IMG/VR virus record: IMGVR_UViG_3300034093_001947
DNA from: a virus
Lineage: Duplodnaviria; Heunggongvirae; Uroviricota; Caudoviricetes
Reading direction: 5' to 3' (one strand)
DNA: 64,000 bases
The translations under genes were made by a program, and so were the position numbers. Positions within the stretch are counted from its first letter, which is position 1, and the number at the start of each line of letters is the position of its first letter. The notes below the pieces were generated by a model, which was not told the DNA's origin, ran no database searches, and saw nothing but the letters and a program-made list of their open reading frames with translations. This document shows positions 1,326-13,806 of this stretch, one piece after another.

Positions 1326-1442
1326 AGGATACATACAGCAATGTCTAACGACACGTTGGTTCGATTCCAACATTATCCGCTTTGGATGATTCGCTCAATG
1401 GTAGAGCAATGGGCTTCATGCCCATCGAAACTGTATCCTGTT
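1326..1442 (+). ncRNA. Y-RNA-like module 1 enclosing a circularly permuted tRNA mimic (T arm, closed acceptor, D arm, anticodon-like arm)
   Basis: AGGATACA/TGTATCCT stem + TACAGCAA; GTTGG-TTCGATT-CCAAC; ATTATCC-GCTTT-GGATGAT; GCTC-AATGGTA-GAGC; ATGGG-CTTCATG-CCCAT. Confidence 0.75.
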
Positions 1443-4207: not shown

Positions 4208-4272
4208 AGGATCAGTTCAGCAAACATAATAAAAATTTCATTTATACTGAAACATAAAAAGTTGATCCTGTT
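4208..4272 (+). ncRNA. Y-RNA-like module 2 (minimal)
   Basis: AGGATCAG-TTCAGCAA ... TTGATCCT-GTT. Confidence 0.7.
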
Positions 4273-4279
4273 ATTTTAT

Positions 4280-4371
4280 GCCCCTGTAGTTTAATGGTAG
4301 AACAGCGGATTTATATCCCGTATGCAACAGATAATTGGTTAGTGTGGGTTCGACTCCCGCCGGGGGTACCA
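4280..4371 (+). tRNA. tRNA-Ile(TAT) with long variable arm
   Basis: GCGGA-TTTATAT-CCCGT, ~22-nt variable region, ACCA. Confidence 0.8.
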
Positions 4372-4372
4372 A

Positions 4373-4524
4373 GTTTTGAGATAGACGATGAGATGAGTCC
4401 CTTGTATTCTAGTGCCCTATTCTTGAGCATGACACACCAGTAGAATTGTACAAGGTCTGCATAAACTCTCTCATTCGAGACAACCCAGCGAGTCCTTAAG
4501 AAAGATAGTTGGTCTCTCAAAAAC
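4373..4524 (+). ncRNA. Unidentified structured RNA
   Basis: TTTTGAGA/TCTCAAAA closing stem; nested GATGAGA..TCTCATT, CCTTGTA/TACAAGG, TTCTA/TAGAA helices. Confidence 0.5.
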
Positions 4525-4530
4525 CTATTT

Positions 4531-4592
4531 AGGTTAATTACAGCAATAAAAAATGGCTGTCTGCTAGGACTTTAAACTAGTATTAACCTGTT
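4531..4592 (+). ncRNA. Y-RNA-like module 3 (minimal)
   Basis: AGGTTAAT-TACAGCAA ... ATTAACCT-GTT. Confidence 0.7.
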
Positions 4593-4798
4593 GAAAACCC
4601 GGTTTACTGTTTTACGTTATTAAAACAGCGTCCCTGAAACGATAGAACAGGGGGTACACTAGGACCTGACCTTACAGTCTTCTGTTCGGAGATACTGAAA
4701 ACTGCCTAGGGGCGGGAACAAAACCCGTCCAGATGGAAAAATTAGTGGACAGAGTAACCGCTCAGTTTGGGGCTCATGTGGTGTGAGTGGCTAGACAC
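4593..4798 (+). ncRNA. Unidentified multi-hairpin RNA (~200 nt)
   Basis: CTGTTTTA/TAAAACAG, CCCTG/CAGGG, CTAGG/CCTAG, GCGGG/CCCGT hairpins; no ORF. Confidence 0.45.
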
Positions 4799-4872
4799 TT
4801 TATTGAAATGCATTAGGTATCGTATCAAGTAGTGTAACTACTTTGCCAGCGGTGTTAGTGTGTTTCAATAAA
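4799..4872 (+). ncRNA. Structured RNA, TAGTGTGTTTC family copy B
   Basis: 17-bp stem TTTATTGAAATGCATTA/TAGTGTGTTTCAATAAA with AAGTAG-TGTAA-CTACTT hairpin. Confidence 0.5.
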
Positions 4873-4882
4873 TAGATTTAAT

Positions 4883-5368: not shown

Positions 5369-5443
5369 GGGCTGATAGTGATAATGGGAGCACAGTGGCT
5401 TTGCAAGCCTCGGGTGGGAGTTCGATCCTCCCTCGGTCCACCA
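5369..5443 (+). tRNA. tRNA-Ala(TGC)
   Basis: G3:U70 pair, loop TT-TGC-AA, ACCA. Confidence 0.9.
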
Positions 5444-5458
5444 ACAAAGGAATGTTAT

Positions 5459-5596
5459 ATGAGTACAAAAGATACACTTGATAAAGCATATGGCAATATT
5501 CCCAAAGAGCCGGTATCATTTATACAATTTGATTTACCGACATTTAGAGGAATTAAGTATTACTGGCTGCGGCTAGTAAGACTTTTTACTCGTTAA
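5459..5596 (+). CDS. Small hypothetical protein
   Basis: AAAGGA SD then ATG 5459 (MSTKDTLDKAYGNIPK...). Confidence 0.55.
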   Translation: MSTKDTLDKAYGNIPKEPVSFIQFDLPTFRGIKYYWLRLVRLFTR

Positions 5597-5608
5597 GTTT
5601 TGACCTTT

Positions 5609-5727
5609 AGGTTCTTTTCAGCAATTAAAAATAATCTTTCTGTAAAAAAGAGGGGCTGGGTTCGAATCCCGGGCGTGAGTTGGTCTTCACGTTGGTGTAG
5701 TGGTAGCACGTAAAAAGAGAACCTGTT
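5609..5727 (+). ncRNA. Y-RNA-like module 4 enclosing a circularly permuted tRNA-Tyr(GTA) mimic
   Basis: AGGTTCTT-TTCAGCAA ... GAGAACCT-GTT; inside TCTTT-CTGTAAA-AAAGA, CTGGG-TTCGAAT-CCCGG, GCGTGAG-TTGGTC-TTCACGT, GTGT-AGTGGTA-GCAC. Confidence 0.8.
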
Positions 5728-5756
5728 TAACTTTAACTTTAACTTCAAGGAAACAC

Positions 5757-5984
5757 ATGGCACGTTTAACGTCACAAGCAGCGGTAGAGATGGTAGGTAA
5801 TCGTTTTGATCTAGTATTGATTGCATCAATTCGTGCTAGAGAATTAAAGCGTGGGCATATGCCTATGGTTACCTGTAATAACGGATTCAACGTCACTGCA
5901 CTTCGAGAAATTGAAGCAGGTAAAGTGGGACGTGATTATTTGGAAAAGCTTCGCAAGCCTCCTAAAAAGAGTGAACACTATTAA
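5757..5984 (+). CDS. rpoZ: DNA-directed RNA polymerase omega subunit homolog
   Basis: MARLT...GNRFDLVLIASIRAREL.RG...VTALREIEAGKV matches the RpoZ signature; AAGGA SD. Confidence 0.85.
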   Translation: MARLTSQAAVEMVGNRFDLVLIASIRARELKRGHMPMVTCNNGFNVTALREIEAGKVGRDYLEKLRKPPKKSEHY

Positions 5985-5989
5985 AGATC

Positions 5990-6448
5990 ATGCAGCCAAT
6001 CTATCTTAATAAAGAAGTCGATAAGACCGGCGTTGAGCTAGAAATTTTACACGTTGAACAAATAGCCAATAGTCCAGTCTATACATTTTTTATCAGACAC
6101 ATGGCCGAATTGATAGATTCCGGGTTCGCAATGGCACGAACTAGTTGGAATGACAATGATTGTGGAGCCATTTATGCAGAAGAGAATGGTGTTATAGTAG
6201 GGGCCATAATCTACAGTAGAGCATACCTACACAAAAATTGCCTGTGGATCGAACTTAGTGCAGTACGTAGTGATTGCCGGAAACGCGGCATTTATTCAGT
6301 GTTACATAATTATTTTGAAATGCTTGCAAAAAAAATGAACTGCGATTCTATTTCTAGTAAAGTACATAAAAACAATGTAATTCGATTATCTTCAGCAGAA
6401 AAAGTTGGCATGAATATTGCTTTCTACCAAATGGTTAAAATGATCTAA
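5990..6448 (+). CDS. GNAT-family acetyltransferase
   Basis: WIELSAVRSDCRKRGIY (motif A: V..D.R.RG). Confidence 0.7.
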   Translation: MQPIYLNKEVDKTGVELEILHVEQIANSPVYTFFIRHMAELIDSGFAMARTSWNDNDCGAIYAEENGVIVGAIIYSRAYLHKNCLWIELSAVRSDCRKRGIYSVLHNYFEMLAKKMNCDSISSKVHKNNVIRLSSAEKVGMNIAFYQMVKMI

Positions 6449-6489
6449 TAAATATTAAACAATATGCGTGAATACTTGCATTAATTAAT

Positions 6490-7239
6490 ATGAAAATAGA
6501 TCAATACTTAAAACCAAAAAATATACCGGGATGGCTAGAGAAAGTATTAGCTTCTCAGCAACGAACAGAGTATAATAAAATACCAACTTATCCAGAAGTT
6601 GAAACTATCAGAGAGTTTTACACTGCACACACATGCAATACTTTTGTTGATCTAGGATGTTGGCTAGGAGTTTTATCAGCACAGGTTAAAAAAGCAGTAA
6701 ATCCGAACAAGCACATACTGATCGATGCTGTGCCTACATACCTGTATCTTGCAAAAAGTCTATTGACAACAGAACAATTAGATGCTAATATAGATATAGT
6801 CGAAATGTCAATTATCGATCGTGAAGAATTTCCAAGTCATTTAACAGTAAATCTTGATGATACATTAAACACTTCTTCAATTAGAACAACCACCAAAGCT
6901 GATATAACAGTTAACATTCCAATTGCAAATCCAAAAACATGCAATGATGCCGCAGTTGAGATTTTTAATCTTGCACCGAATAGTACATATTTAAAAATGG
7001 ATTTAGATGGAGTTGATTACTCATTTTTAAAATCTTTAATAAATCTCTCTATACTGCCCAGCGTTATTCATTTTGAAGCATGGCTAATGACTCCTTCAGA
7101 ATTTAAAGAATGTATTAGTATTTTGGCTCAGTTTGAATCGCTCGGTTACAAAGTTCCTAATCCTCTCGAACTTCTTGGTGCAGATATTAGGGTAATCGTT
7201 ATTTCAAGACAACAATTTAAAAACATCAAAGTAAGGTAA
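6490..7239 (+). CDS. FkbM-like SAM-dependent methyltransferase
   Basis: FVDLGCWLG motif I; YLKMDLDG motif. Confidence 0.65.
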   Translation: MKIDQYLKPKNIPGWLEKVLASQQRTEYNKIPTYPEVETIREFYTAHTCNTFVDLGCWLGVLSAQVKKAVNPNKHILIDAVPTYLYLAKSLLTTEQLDANIDIVEMSIIDREEFPSHLTVNLDDTLNTSSIRTTTKADITVNIPIANPKTCNDAAVEIFNLAPNSTYLKMDLDGVDYSFLKSLINLSILPSVIHFEAWLMTPSEFKECISILAQFESLGYKVPNPLELLGADIRVIVISRQQFKNIKVR

Positions 7240-7241
7240 AA

Positions 7242-7706
7242 ATGGCAAAATGTTATCAATTGGTCGGAGTGCCTGCCTCGGGCAAGAGCACTTGGATTAA
7301 AGAACAAGATTGGGCTTCTGACTGCGTAGTAGTGAGTACTGACGATTTTGTTGAAGCCTATGCTGTAGAACAAGGCAAGACCTACTCGGAAGTATTTGTA
7401 GAGTACATGCCGACGGCTGTAAATCTAATGGCTGACAAAGTTGTACAAGCACGTGAAGCTGGCAAGGACATTATATGGGATCAAACCAGTACTACTCTAG
7501 TAAGCCGTATTCGTAAGTTTAATATGTTGCCTGACTACGAGCATATTGCTGTGGTGTTTAAGACACCGGAACATAAAGAACTGTTTAGACGGTTATGGAG
7601 TCGCCCAGGCAAAGACATTCCAGAGCATGTTATCGCCAGCATGATTGCCAGTTGGGAAGAGCCTACTGTAGAGGAAGGCTTTAAGGAAGTTTGGTTCGCC
7701 CAATAA
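7242..7706 (+). CDS. P-loop kinase (AAA_33 / polynucleotide kinase-like)
   Basis: GVPASGKST Walker A, STDD, IIWDQTS. Confidence 0.8.
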   Translation: MAKCYQLVGVPASGKSTWIKEQDWASDCVVVSTDDFVEAYAVEQGKTYSEVFVEYMPTAVNLMADKVVQAREAGKDIIWDQTSTTLVSRIRKFNMLPDYEHIAVVFKTPEHKELFRRLWSRPGKDIPEHVIASMIASWEEPTVEEGFKEVWFAQ

Positions 7707-13297: not shown

Positions 13298-13464
13298 AGG
13301 TTAGGTACAGCAACATTCATTAACTATGAACTGTTAGACACTGTGGTAGAAACTGGAGCAGAGTGCGTAAAAACACCGAGCGTTGAAGGGGTCTATTGAA
13401 GCAAGACTAACGAGCACAGAGTGATGGCCTGTGTAAAATAAAAGCAGTCAACAACTAACCTGTT
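13298..13464 (+). ncRNA. Y-RNA-like module 5
   Basis: AGGTTAGG-TACAGCAA ... CTAACCT-GTT, multi-hairpin interior. Confidence 0.7.
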
Positions 13465-13471
13465 AAATCCT

Positions 13472-13728
13472 AGGATGGATTCAGCAACTTAAACAATAAA
13501 CTCTGAACTAACTGCTATAGAAGATGGTCGCAGGACACAGTAGAAATACTGTTCTAGGAAACTAGACTCGAAGGAATAGACGACACATTGGAAAGACTTT
13601 GTATGATGATTGTACAGACACAACACAATCTAGGCGACATGAATTGTATGCTAGGCTTGCGAGACTTGAACCGATATACTGGGGATGGGGGTAAGCAGAA
13701 AATAAAAATCCGTCTCAGCCATCCTGTT
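13472..13728 (+). ncRNA. Y-RNA-like module 6
   Basis: AGGATGGA-TTCAGCAA ... CCATCCT-GTT; GAAA tetraloop hairpins inside. Confidence 0.7.
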
Positions 13729-13734
13729 GTAGTT

Positions 13735-13806
13735 AGGTTAATTACAGCAATTTTAAATTGTATCATTAAAACCCGTGGGAACAACAAAGCCCACATTTAA
13801 CCTGAA
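13735..13806 (+). ncRNA. Y-RNA-like module 7, abutting the RBS of the TROVE-like gene
   Basis: AGGTTAAT-TACAGCAA ... TTAACCT-GAA then GGAAAAGAAAATG. Confidence 0.7.

What the first reader, a model, noticed from the sequence alone, without database searches (positions are those of the whole stretch)
5609..5727. Complete circularly permuted tRNA-Tyr(GTA) mimic inside the conserved stem
The order is anticodon arm (TCTTT-CTGTAAA-AAAGA), variable GGGG, T arm (CTGGG-TTCGAAT-CCCGG), 7-bp acceptor stem closed by a TTGGTC loop, then D arm (GTGT-AGTGGTA-GCAC). This is a whole cloverleaf opened between the D and anticodon arms, with the shared AGG..CAGCAA/CCTG stem at the break. The acceptor (U1:G72, U73, no CCA) lacks bacterial Tyr identity, so it looks like a non-chargeable decoy. 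The alternative is a permuted tRNA gene matured by circularisation and re-cutting, as known from red algae and archaea. It lies immediately upstream of rpoZ.
Basis: partly seen in the sequence, partly recalled or inferred. Interest (0 to 1): 0.87.

Follow-up and report, generated by a model that had tools for sequence, protein, structure and literature searches.

The report
Phage tRNA-shaped Y-like RNA
A giant phage encodes a small RNA that folds like a complete transfer RNA with its ends sealed; it is most likely the partner of a phage ring protein shaped like the Ro60 autoantigen, not a working or "tyrosine" tRNA.

Summary
Window 5609-5725 contains all four tRNA arms in rotated order (anticodon arm, T arm, closed acceptor hairpin, D arm) inside an AGG...CCUG stem. 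Rejoined in silico, ARAGORN calls it a 74-nt tRNA. Across 55-64 distinct homologues from other phage contigs the helices co-vary, and so do the tRNA tertiary pairs 15-48 and 26-44.

- The "Tyr" anticodon is not conserved. The loop consensus is CUGNAAA, and its middle base is the most variable column.
- The loop closing the acceptor pairs with a conserved GACC leader (5602-5605) upstream, and the two co-vary. It is therefore part of the mature RNA, not a spacer to be cut out.
- The closing stem plus invariant CAGCAA recurs nine times in this genome's tRNA array with other interiors. It co-occurs with a DUF2828/vWA gene (13817-15229) whose model matches only Ro60 structures over its full length.

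Other phages carry the same tRNA-like body on a GNCGAA-type stem beside a canonical TROVE Ro60 gene. The best reading is therefore a Y-RNA-like (YrlA-like) tRNA mimic.

The decoy idea is untested, and a matured permuted tRNA is unlikely. This scan has already noted the CAGCAA-RNA/Ro60-like pairing on other DNA; I found no paper describing it.

The parts
5602..5605 (+). 5' leader GACC, which pairs with the acceptor-closing loop to form a pseudoknot.
   Evidence: A matching leader 4-mer is present in 64 of 64 homologues, Watson-Crick in 62. Compensatory variants are UACC with GGUA (3 sequences) and GACU with AGUC (1 sequence). In the control, 17 of 228 other handle RNAs have GACC upstream.
5609..5615 (+). 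Handle, 5' strand (AGGUUCU).
   Evidence: It pairs with 5718-5724. Four of its 7 pairs show double changes in homologues, and the stem co-varies among the 9 paralogues of this genome.
5618..5624 (+). Invariant UCAGCAA motif just inside the handle, the presumed protein-binding signature.
   Evidence: CAGCAA is invariant in 55 of 55 homologues and present in all 9 paralogues, all on the + strand.
5635..5651 (+). Anticodon-like arm: a 5-bp stem and the 7-nt loop CUGUAAA, with the 'anticodon' at 5642-5644.
   Evidence: The stem sequence is nearly invariant. The loop consensus is CUGNAAA, and position 35 is the most variable column. Covariation between positions 26 and 44 supports stacking under the D stem. 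An alternative register is possible.
5652..5655 (+). 4-nt variable loop (GGGG).
   Evidence: Its last base co-varies with D-loop position 15: A-U 36, G-G 19, G-C 2.
5656..5672 (+). T arm with loop UUCGAAU.
   Evidence: Two stem pairs show compensatory changes. The loop is conserved in all five loci that were found through rpoZ rather than through the RNA.
5673..5692 (+). Acceptor-like 7-bp hairpin closed by the loop UUGGUC (5680-5685). There is no free ends and no CCA.
   Evidence: All 7 pairs co-vary. The loop core GGUC (5682-5685) pairs with the leader.
5693..5710 (+). U8 and G9, the D arm (GUGU / AGUGGUA / GCAC) and G26.
   Evidence: G18 and G19 are invariant, and U8-A14 is present in 63 of 64, although no search pattern included this arm.
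5711..5725 (+). A-rich linker, the handle 3' strand (AGAACCU, 5718-5724) and a trailing G.
   Evidence: CCUG is invariant.
13817..15232 (+). Gene for a 471-aa DUF2828 + DUF7788 (vWA) protein with a Ro60-like ring fold, the presumed protein partner.
   Evidence: Pfam E-values are 8e-27 and 2.7e-50. The AlphaFold2 model has pLDDT 92.4. The top 12 PDB matches are all Ro60 or Rsr, at TM 0.46-0.66. The MIDAS residues D-x-S-x-S are invariant.
1326..1439 (+). Paralogous handle RNA carrying a second permuted tRNA-like body.
4208..4269 (+). Paralogous handle RNA with a short A-rich interior.
4531..4589 (+). Paralogous handle RNA with a short interior.
13298..13461 (+). Paralogous handle RNA with a 164-nt interior.
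13472..13725 (+). Paralogous handle RNA with a 254-nt interior.
13735..13803 (+). Paralogous handle RNA that ends 14 nt before the Ro60-like gene.

Best explanation
The element is the gene of a stable small non-coding RNA of about 125 nt, built from two modules like a bacterial Y RNA.

Module 1 is a "handle": a 7-8 bp terminal stem (AGG...CCUG) followed by an invariant CAGCAA. I infer that this handle is the binding site of the phage's own Ro60-like ring protein (the DUF2828 + vWA gene at 13817-15229).

Module 2 is a complete tRNA replica with D, anticodon, T and acceptor arms and the tRNA tertiary pairs. Its acceptor end is sealed by a loop, and that loop is locked by base pairing to the RNA's 5' leader.

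By analogy with YrlA I infer that the tRNA-shaped module presents a tRNA elbow and anticodon loop to some host or phage tRNA-binding factor while tethered to the ring protein. On this reading it gates or redirects an RNA-surveillance, degradation or repair activity during infection. It is not charged and does not decode.

Shown here:
- the RNA architecture and the selection acting on it
- the Ro60-like fold of the protein
- the co-occurrence of handle and protein

Inferred, not shown:
- physical binding of the RNA to the protein
- the identity of the factor recruited
For: Structure:
- The five helices are predicted for the single sequence and for the alignment.
- In 55 homologues 96.7% of cells are paired and 15 pairs show double changes; 0 of 500 shuffles match.
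- The tertiary pairs co-vary or are conserved: 15-48 as A-U 36, G-G 19 and G-C 2 (Fisher 7e-13, not corrected for relatedness); 26-44 co-varies; U8-A14 is present in 63 of 64.
- The leader-loop pseudoknot co-varies.

Not a tRNA gene:
- It has no CCA, whereas 38 of 39 real tRNAs of this phage encode it.
- Canonical Tyr, Phe, Cys and Ser(GGA) tRNAs are already present.
- The middle anticodon base is free to vary.

Family:
- The genome carries 9 handle RNAs, all on the + strand, inside the tRNA array and with unrelated interiors. Three of them abut the DUF2828 gene.

Protein:
- The model has pLDDT 92.4, and its only full-length structural matches are Ro60 from Xenopus, human, Deinococcus and Thermus phage phiLo.

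Co-occurrence:
- Five of 5 large phage records with this RNA encode the protein, and each has 3-9 handle motifs on the gene's strand, mostly near the gene.
- Five of 5 large rpoZ-bearing records without the protein show the motif only at background level.

Modularity:
- The same anticodon-arm + T-arm body occurs on two kinds of closing stem.
- 71 loci have the CAGCA handle; 19 of them show DUF2828 and none shows TROVE in the held flank.
- 8 loci have a GNCGAA-type or other stem; none shows DUF2828 and 6 show a canonical TROVE Ro60.

Literature:
- YrlA has the order T arm, closed acceptor stem-loop, D arm, and a short 5' motif thought to bind Ro60 (PMC4201824).
- Its crystal structure is a tRNA-like L without a free CCA (bioRxiv 10.1101/312249).
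Against: - No binding, transcript ends or abundance have been measured. The only RNA-library evidence is contigs of relatives in one metatranscriptome, which could derive from DNA.
- This copy lies 8.1 kb from the Ro60-like gene. YrlA genes usually lie within 4 kb of theirs.
- No Rfam family, Y-RNA models included, matches, and the YrlA motif GNCGAA is absent.
- The protein is not a Pfam TROVE member and shares only 12-14% identity with Ro60.
- The co-occurrence counts come from related phages and are not phylogenetically independent.
- Most homologues were collected with patterns that fixed the T loop and either the acceptor loop or the anticodon stem. Conservation of those parts is therefore partly built in.
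Confidence: 0.6

Rival explanations
1. Decoy for a tRNA-directed host weapon. The sealed tRNA replica would soak up or mis-direct an anticodon nuclease or another tRNA-targeting defence toxin, with or without the Ro60-like protein.
For: - It has a canonical 7-nt anticodon loop with U33 and A37 on a complete, tertiary-stabilised L shape.
- Its sealed, pseudoknotted acceptor end should make it non-chargeable and nuclease-resistant.
- The rapidly varying middle anticodon base could reflect an arms race.
- It sits in a phage tRNA array, and such arrays are thought to replace cleaved host tRNAs (general knowledge).
Against: - A decoy for one nuclease should keep that nuclease's anticodon. Here GTA, GGA, GAA, GCA and nine other triplets sit on an otherwise constant body.
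- The sister type at 1326-1439 and its orthologues have 5-6-nt loops, and a third type has no anticodon or acceptor arm at all. What the types share is the D/T elbow, not the anticodon.
- No nuclease target is known for this uncultured host.
Confidence: 0.15
2. Processing or stability cassette without a dedicated protein. The handle and the tRNA shape would serve only to have the RNA excised from the tRNA-array transcript by RNase P/Z/E and protected from exonucleases, and the interiors would act on their own.
For: - Handle RNAs occupy 'tRNA slots' 5-10 nt from flanking tRNAs.
- Their interiors are very diverse.
Against: - An invariant 6-nt motif is not explained by processing alone.
- The motif's presence follows one protein family: 5 of 5 records with the protein versus 0 of 5 without.
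- The handle type switches with the Ro60-type gene, 19:0 against 0:6.
Confidence: 0.12
3. A tRNA-like RNA that is opened and used. RNase P would cut the acceptor loop, and the 3' end would be trimmed and given CCA, as reported for Mycobacterium smegmatis YrlA. Alternatively the RNA would be circularised and re-cut as a true permuted tRNA. Either route would yield a chargeable molecule.
For: - A 7-bp acceptor stem stacked on a 5-bp T stem is the main RNase P determinant. M. smegmatis YrlA, which has such a stem, is cleaved by RNase P and receives CCA in vivo (PMC4201824).
- The 7-bp length is kept in the homologues.
Against: - The loop that would be cut is conserved and paired with the leader.
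- There is no bulge-helix-bulge at the junction (sequence).
- No RtcB ligase or CCA-adding enzyme was found in the 65%-complete record.
- The anticodon changes while the acceptor stem and U73 stay constant, which is incompatible with one amino-acid identity.
- The phage already has canonical tRNAs for these anticodons.
Confidence: 0.06
4. A cis-regulatory leader (tRNA-sensing or attenuator-like) of the rpoZ-like gene that starts 32 nt downstream.
For: It lies immediately upstream of the gene on the same strand.
Against: In homologues the downstream neighbour is usually a tRNA gene, another handle RNA or an unrelated gene. Only 18 of 80 loci hold an rpoZ homologue anywhere in the flank.
Confidence: 0.02

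Closest known systems
YrlA-type bacterial and phage Y RNAs bound by Ro60/Rsr (Chen et al. 2014, PMC4201824; crystal structure, Wang et al. 2018, bioRxiv 10.1101/312249)
   Same: - Size of about 80-130 nt, with the 5' and 3' ends forming a stem.
- A short conserved motif on the 5' strand.
- The interior order is T arm, closed 'acceptor' stem-loop, D arm, with the tRNA tertiary nucleotides and no free CCA.
- It is encoded on the same strand as a ring-shaped Ro60-type gene.
- I found the same anticodon-arm + T-arm body next to canonical TROVE genes in other phages.
   Different: - The motif is CAGCAA, not GNCGAAN0-1G.
- No Rfam match.
- The partner gene is DUF2828/DUF7788, not Pfam TROVE.
- This RNA keeps a full anticodon arm with a canonical 7-nt loop, whereas S. 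[quoted passage not shown] - The acceptor loop is pseudoknotted to the 5' leader.
Mycobacterium smegmatis YrlA (PMC4201824)
   Same: It has a seven-base-pair acceptor-like stem closed by a loop.
   Different: That RNA is cleaved by RNase P and receives CCA in vivo. Here the loop is conserved and paired with the leader, which argues that it stays closed. No experiment exists.
Deinococcus radiodurans Yrn1 and the RYPER complex; Thermus phage phiLo Ro60 with Yrl1/Yrl2 (PMC12135203)
   Same: A Y RNA tethers a Ro60 ring to another factor (PNPase). Yrn1 can be drawn with an anticodon-like arm. The phiLo case shows a phage-encoded Ro60 with phage-encoded partner RNAs. The phiLo Ro60 structure (9kop) is the top structural match of the protein here.
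   Different: The Yrn1 loop has 6 nt and its D arm is doubtful. The phiLo RNAs carry the CGAA motif. The partner factor here is unknown.
Circularly permuted tRNA genes of Cyanidioschyzon merolae and other algae or archaea (general knowledge; reviewed in PMC3400036)
   Same: The 3' half of the cloverleaf is encoded upstream of the 5' half, and the acceptor halves are joined by a short intervening sequence.
   Different: Those genes are matured through a bulge-helix-bulge at the termini, a splicing endonuclease and a ligase, followed by removal of the intervening sequence and CCA addition. They also have a fixed identity. None of these features is present here.
Two-piece (permuted) tmRNA
   Same: It is a permuted tRNA-like domain in bacteria and phages.
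   Different: tmRNA has a free, chargeable CCA end, a tag reading frame and no anticodon arm. ARAGORN finds no tmRNA here.

Membership tests
Canonical tRNA gene (Rfam RF00005 / ARAGORN) | A contiguous cloverleaf detected in genomic order. | tested here: not met
   Neither ARAGORN nor Rfam at the gathering or E<=10 thresholds calls it. It is detected only after artificial re-ordering.
Canonical tRNA gene (Rfam RF00005 / ARAGORN) | An anticodon conserved among orthologues, and an encoded 3' CCA as in this phage's own tRNAs. | tested here: not met
   There are 13 different triplets in 55 homologues. After N73 the sequence is UGGUC, while 38 of 39 real tRNAs of the phage encode CCA.
Circularly permuted tRNA genes | The 3' half lies upstream of the 5' half, with acceptor strands that pair. 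| tested here: met
Circularly permuted tRNA genes | A bulge-helix-bulge at the joined termini for endonuclease cleavage and circularisation. | tested here: not met
   The junction is a 7-bp stem followed by an asymmetric 19-nt/7-nt internal loop. There are no two 3-nt bulges 4 bp apart.
Circularly permuted tRNA genes | The intervening sequence between the acceptor halves is discarded, so it is unconstrained. | tested here: not met
   The loop core is conserved and co-varies with the 5' leader.
YrlA / Y RNA | The order T arm, closed acceptor-like stem-loop, D arm, with tRNA tertiary nucleotides, enclosed by a terminal stem. | tested here: met
YrlA / Y RNA | A GNCGAAN0-1G motif near the 5' end, or a match to a covariance model. 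| tested here: not met
   The motif at that place is CAGCAA. No Rfam family scores E<=10 except three chance-level hits and a weak one to Dictyostelium Class I RNA.
YrlA / Y RNA | Encoded near, and on the strand of, a TROVE-domain Ro60 gene. | tested here: not met
   The record has no PF05731 match. A Ro60-fold DUF2828 gene lies 8.1 kb downstream on the same strand, so the criterion is met only in the wider, structural sense.
YrlA / Y RNA | Bound by the Ro60 protein. | not testable with these tools
   This needs RIP, CLIP or EMSA.
CAGCAA-handle RNAs linked to DUF2828 Ro60-like genes (a family known only from this scan's notes; I found no paper on it) | A co-varying AGG...CCUG terminal stem, an invariant CAGCAA just inside it, one strand only, and a DUF2828 gene in the same genome. 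| tested here: met
Dictyostelium Class I RNA (RF01414) | A covariance-model score at or above the gathering threshold (41.5 bits). | tested here: not met
   Three handle RNAs of the window score 17.5, 22.0 and 16.8 bits.

The most novel reading that the evidence does not exclude
The element would belong to an undescribed, very widespread phage ribonucleoprotein. In it, a Ro60-like ring (DUF2828) is coupled through a CAGCAA handle to a pseudoknot-locked, complete tRNA replica whose middle anticodon base evolves freely. That replica would be a re-targetable tRNA look-alike that captures host tRNA-directed enzymes (anticodon nucleases, modification or repair enzymes) and delivers them, or damaged tRNAs, to the ring. 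The exchange of one tRNA-like body between TROVE-type and DUF2828-type handles would then show that Y RNAs are modular across two protein families.
Probability: 0.2. Interest if true: 0.85.

Novelty: new variant of a known kind. Interest (0 to 1): 0.7.

Why it matters
Ro60 and its Y RNAs are known from animals, about 5% of bacteria and a few phages. What the tRNA-like part of bacterial Y RNAs binds is still unknown.

This element shows that a second, sequence-unrelated but Ro60-shaped protein family travels with its own RNA handle. That family has more than 6,000 cluster representatives at E<=0.001. The same tRNA-shaped body is mounted on either handle.

This yields direct experiments: handle swaps, and compensatory mutants of the leader-loop pairing. 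It also gives the most complete natural tRNA replica yet seen in a Y-like RNA, and a reason to look for tRNA-elbow or anticodon-loop binding partners in phage infection.

For genome annotation, it explains conserved "gaps" in phage tRNA arrays that tRNA finders skip.

Tried and rejected
- blastn of 5400-6500 against 50,697 GenBank phage records found no match.
- Rfam at gathering and E-value thresholds over the element and the other handle RNAs gave only sub-threshold hits. Rfam over eight loci with TROVE-linked relatives returned only tRNAs and a tmRNA.
- ARAGORN with the intron option, run on constructs that kept the handle, gave arbitrary anticodons and was discarded.
- The single-sequence folding energy is not distinctive (z = -1.57).
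- RNA evidence is thin. 21 runs, nearly all recorded as RNA libraries, hold small shares of the words. Of the four runs laid, only one freshwater metatranscriptome has contigs over the element, at 5477-5703. They are about 93-95% alike, so they come from relatives. Contigs cannot show ends, strand or level, and DNA carry-over is possible. No joint indicating a circular form was seen, but contigs could not show one reliably.
- RtcB, CCA-adding enzyme and TROVE were not found in the 65%-complete record, which is no proof of absence.
- I considered reading the conserved TTGACC leader as a -35 promoter box. I rejected it because the leader co-varies with the acceptor loop (UACC with GGUA, GACU with AGUC). 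A start downstream of such a box would also cut off the co-varying handle.
- I did not run complex prediction, because it does not take RNA.
- Literature searches for DUF2828, for permuted tRNA plus phage, for Y RNA plus bacteriophage plus tRNA-like, and for CAGCAA plus Class I RNA found no description of this RNA family.

Full report
**What is there.** The window is part of a 228,849-bp IMG/VR virus record, estimated 65% complete. The record has 39 tRNA genes, 25 of them in the window. Between tRNA-Ala (5369-5443) and an rpoZ-like gene (5757-5984; Pfam RNA_pol_Rpb6, E 4.8e-13) lies the element.

Read directly, its order is:
- handle strand AGGUUCU (5609-5615) and UCAGCAA (5618-5624)
- an A/U linker
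- an anticodon-like arm (5635-5651, loop CUGUAAA)
- GGGG
- a T arm (5656-5672, loop UUCGAAU)
- a 7-bp hairpin GCGUGAG/UUCACGU closed by UUGGUC (5673-5692)
- UG, then a D arm (5695-5709, loop AGUGGUA), then G
- a linker and handle strand AGAACCU (5718-5724), then G

The MFE fold gives these five helices. tRNA finders and Rfam do not call the element in this order. When the two halves are rejoined in silico, ARAGORN calls a 74-nt tRNA(GTA). It does the same for all 12 constructs made from homologues of this type and a sister type.

**Is it more than chance?**
- A scan of IMG/VR for the T loop plus the acceptor loop returned 80 loci. About 75 of them hold the same element; the rest are chance hits in coding sequence.
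- In 55 distinct sequences, 96.7% of cells are paired and 15 of 28 pairs show changes on both sides. No shuffle out of 500 reaches these values, and slid registers drop to about 50% paired.
- All seven acceptor pairs, two T-stem pairs and four handle pairs co-vary. The anticodon and D stems are almost invariant in sequence.
- RNAalifold recovers the same helices, with a possible alternative register for the anticodon arm.
- Positions that form tertiary pairs in tRNA behave accordingly. U8-A14 is present in 63 of 64. The Levitt positions 15 and 48 are A-U in 36, G-G in 19 and G-C in 2 (Fisher 7e-13, not corrected for relatedness). Positions 26 and 44 co-vary as G-G or A-C.
- The D arm was in no search pattern, and its G18 and G19 are invariant.

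The L-shaped fold, including an anticodon arm stacked under the D stem, is under selection.

1. The tyrosine anticodon is not conserved. The loop consensus is C-U-G-N-A-A-A. The triplets are GTA 22, GGA 9, GAA 8, GCA 5 and nine others. Position 35 is the most variable column of the whole RNA. The closest relative (99% identical RpoZ) has TGA. The acceptor stem, U73 and the 4-nt variable loop stay the same whatever the triplet.

2. The loop that closes the acceptor is not a spacer. A motif (U)UGACC(A)UU lies directly upstream of the handle in 53 of 54 homologues, whatever precedes it. Its core GACC (window 5602-5605) is complementary to the loop core GGUC (5682-5685).
   - A second scan left both the leader and the loop free. 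In it, variants change together: UACC with GGUA in three loci, GACU with AGUC in one. Two loci keep G-U wobbles, and one extends the helix to 8 bp.
   - GACC occurs upstream of only 17 of 228 other handle RNAs.
   - The acceptor end is therefore tied by a pseudoknot to the RNA's own 5' leader.

3. The outer stem is a family signature.
   - The genome has nine AGG-N-CAGCAA...CCUG elements, all on the + strand and all inside the tRNA array. Their interiors range from short A-rich hairpins to bodies that bring the whole element to 254 nt.
   - One of them (1326-1439) is a second tRNA-like body opened at a different point.
   - Three of them lie directly in front of the gene at 13817-15229.

**The protein.**
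- The gene encodes DUF2828 + DUF7788 and has no sequence match in the PDB.
- An AlphaFold2 model built from 73 diverse homologues has pLDDT 92.4.
- Its only full-length structural matches are Ro60 proteins: phage phiLo, Xenopus, human and Deinococcus Rsr, at TM 0.46-0.66 and 12-14% identity. After these come only isolated vWA domains.
- The MIDAS residues D-x-S-x-S are invariant.
- The record has no canonical TROVE gene.

**Co-occurrence.**
- Five large phage records that carry this RNA all encode the protein. Each has 3-9 handle motifs on the gene's strand, mostly within about 15 kb of the gene, against 0-2 for the control pattern.
- Five large, at least 92% complete rpoZ-bearing records without the protein show the motif at background level.
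- The second scan also pulled out loci in which the same anticodon-arm + T-arm body, followed by an acceptor-like hairpin and a D arm, sits on a different closing stem. That stem carries the YrlA-type motif (for example GCCGAACG) and lies a few hundred nt upstream of a canonical Ro60 gene (PF05731 + PF25045).
- Over all loci with this body, the CAGCA handle goes with DUF2828 in 19 and TROVE in 0 of 71. The other stems go with DUF2828 in 0 and TROVE in 6 of 8.
- The loci are related, and many are too short to reach the gene. Even so, the partition is clean.

**How it most likely works.** The published picture is as follows. A Y RNA has a terminal stem with a short 5'-strand motif that Ro60 binds. 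It also has a second module that engages another factor. In YrlA that module is a tRNA mimic with a closed acceptor stem, whose partner is unknown but expected to be a protein that reads the tRNA elbow (PMC4201824; bioRxiv 10.1101/312249; PMC12135203).

The element here has that plan, with a different handle matched to a different Ro60-shaped protein. I therefore read it as this phage's Y-like RNA. The handle would bind the ring, and the tRNA replica would be the effector module. The replica's ends are locked away, so it should be neither charged nor trimmed.

The architecture, the selection, the protein fold and the co-occurrence are shown here. Binding and the recruited factor are inferred.

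A conserved G34, A36-A37-A38 and an A-U-rich stem resemble the loops of tRNAs that read UNN codons. This makes anticodon-loop enzymes candidate partners, but that is speculation from general knowledge.

**Rivals.**
- A decoy for an anticodon nuclease is not excluded and could be the purpose of the effector module. The free middle base and the non-canonical loops of the sister types speak against a single fixed target.
- Opening by RNase P with CCA addition happens in M. smegmatis YrlA, which has a 7-bp stem. Here the paired, conserved loop argues against it.
- A true permuted tRNA gene fails three of its defining features.
- A leader of rpoZ is contradicted by the variable downstream genes.
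- A pseudogene is contradicted by the covariation.

**Novelty.**
- tRNA mimicry by Y RNAs is published, as is a tandem-tRNA origin that explains the "permutation" (bioRxiv 10.1101/312249).
- In the papers I searched I found no description of the CAGCAA handle, of its DUF2828 partner, of a full anticodon arm with a free middle base, or of the leader-loop pseudoknot.
- This scan's own notebook already records the handle-protein pairing on this genome and on many others. The pairing is therefore not new to the scan.
- New to my knowledge are the pseudoknot, the tertiary covariation, the non-conserved anticodon and the body shared between TROVE-type and DUF2828-type RNAs.

Noticed in passing
window 1326-1439: A second handle RNA has a tRNA-like body in another rotation: small hairpin, T arm, closed acceptor hairpin, D arm, anticodon-like arm. 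It is opened at 43/44, so the handle sits where a long variable arm would. Its orthologues have 5-6-nt 'anticodon' loops. After re-ordering, ARAGORN calls it a tRNA.
   Followed up: partly
L003:2862-2969 and L009:2115-2223: A third type of handle RNA keeps only a T arm and a D arm joined by 3-4 nt, inside an anticodon-stem-like helix, with no acceptor hairpin. The feature shared by all three types is the D/T elbow.
   Followed up: partly
window 13298-13461 and 13472-13725: Two larger handle RNAs (164 and 254 nt) lie directly upstream of the Ro60-like gene. A pair of similar sizes (about 147-169 and 253-257 nt) recurs in at least 8 related loci. There is no Rfam match, and the interiors are unexplained.
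   Followed up: partly
window 5611-5658, 13736-13804, 4532-4590: Three handle RNAs give weak, sub-threshold hits to the Dictyostelium Class I RNA model (17.5, 22.0 and 16.8 bits against a gathering score of 41.5). The hits run through a short terminal stem, UUACAGCAAU and a 3' CUG. This could be coincidence or a distant relationship.
   Followed up: partly
L173:850-985 with the gene at L173:1523-3172; also L162, L166, L178: Other phages carry a Y RNA with a GNCGAA-type closing stem next to a canonical TROVE/vWA_Ro60 gene. Its anticodon-like arm and T arm are nearly identical to those of the element studied here. Rfam does not call these RNAs at its gathering score.
   Followed up: partly
window 4372-4882, especially 4627-4687: A 510-nt stretch of the tRNA array, free of tRNA genes, holds one short handle RNA (4531-4589). 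It also holds a segment that reaches a summed contig depth of about 3,480 in one freshwater metatranscriptome. There is no Rfam match. It may be another abundant structured RNA.
   Followed up: no
window 4280-4371 and 2162-2247: Two odd tRNAs. One is a 92-nt tRNA with anticodon UAU and a long variable arm. The other is an 86-nt tRNA for which ARAGORN reports only a two-base anticodon (ga).
   Followed up: no
window 5757-5984: The phage encodes a homologue of the RNA polymerase omega subunit (Rpb6/RpoZ). 127 stretches encoding relatives were found in IMG/VR. It is followed by genes for a GNAT acetyltransferase, a putative methyltransferase and an AAA_33 kinase-like protein (5990-7706).
   Followed up: partly
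window 5560-5589: A terminator-like hairpin plus a T run lies inside or at the end of a small ORF (5459-5596), about 10 nt before the element's leader.
   Followed up: no
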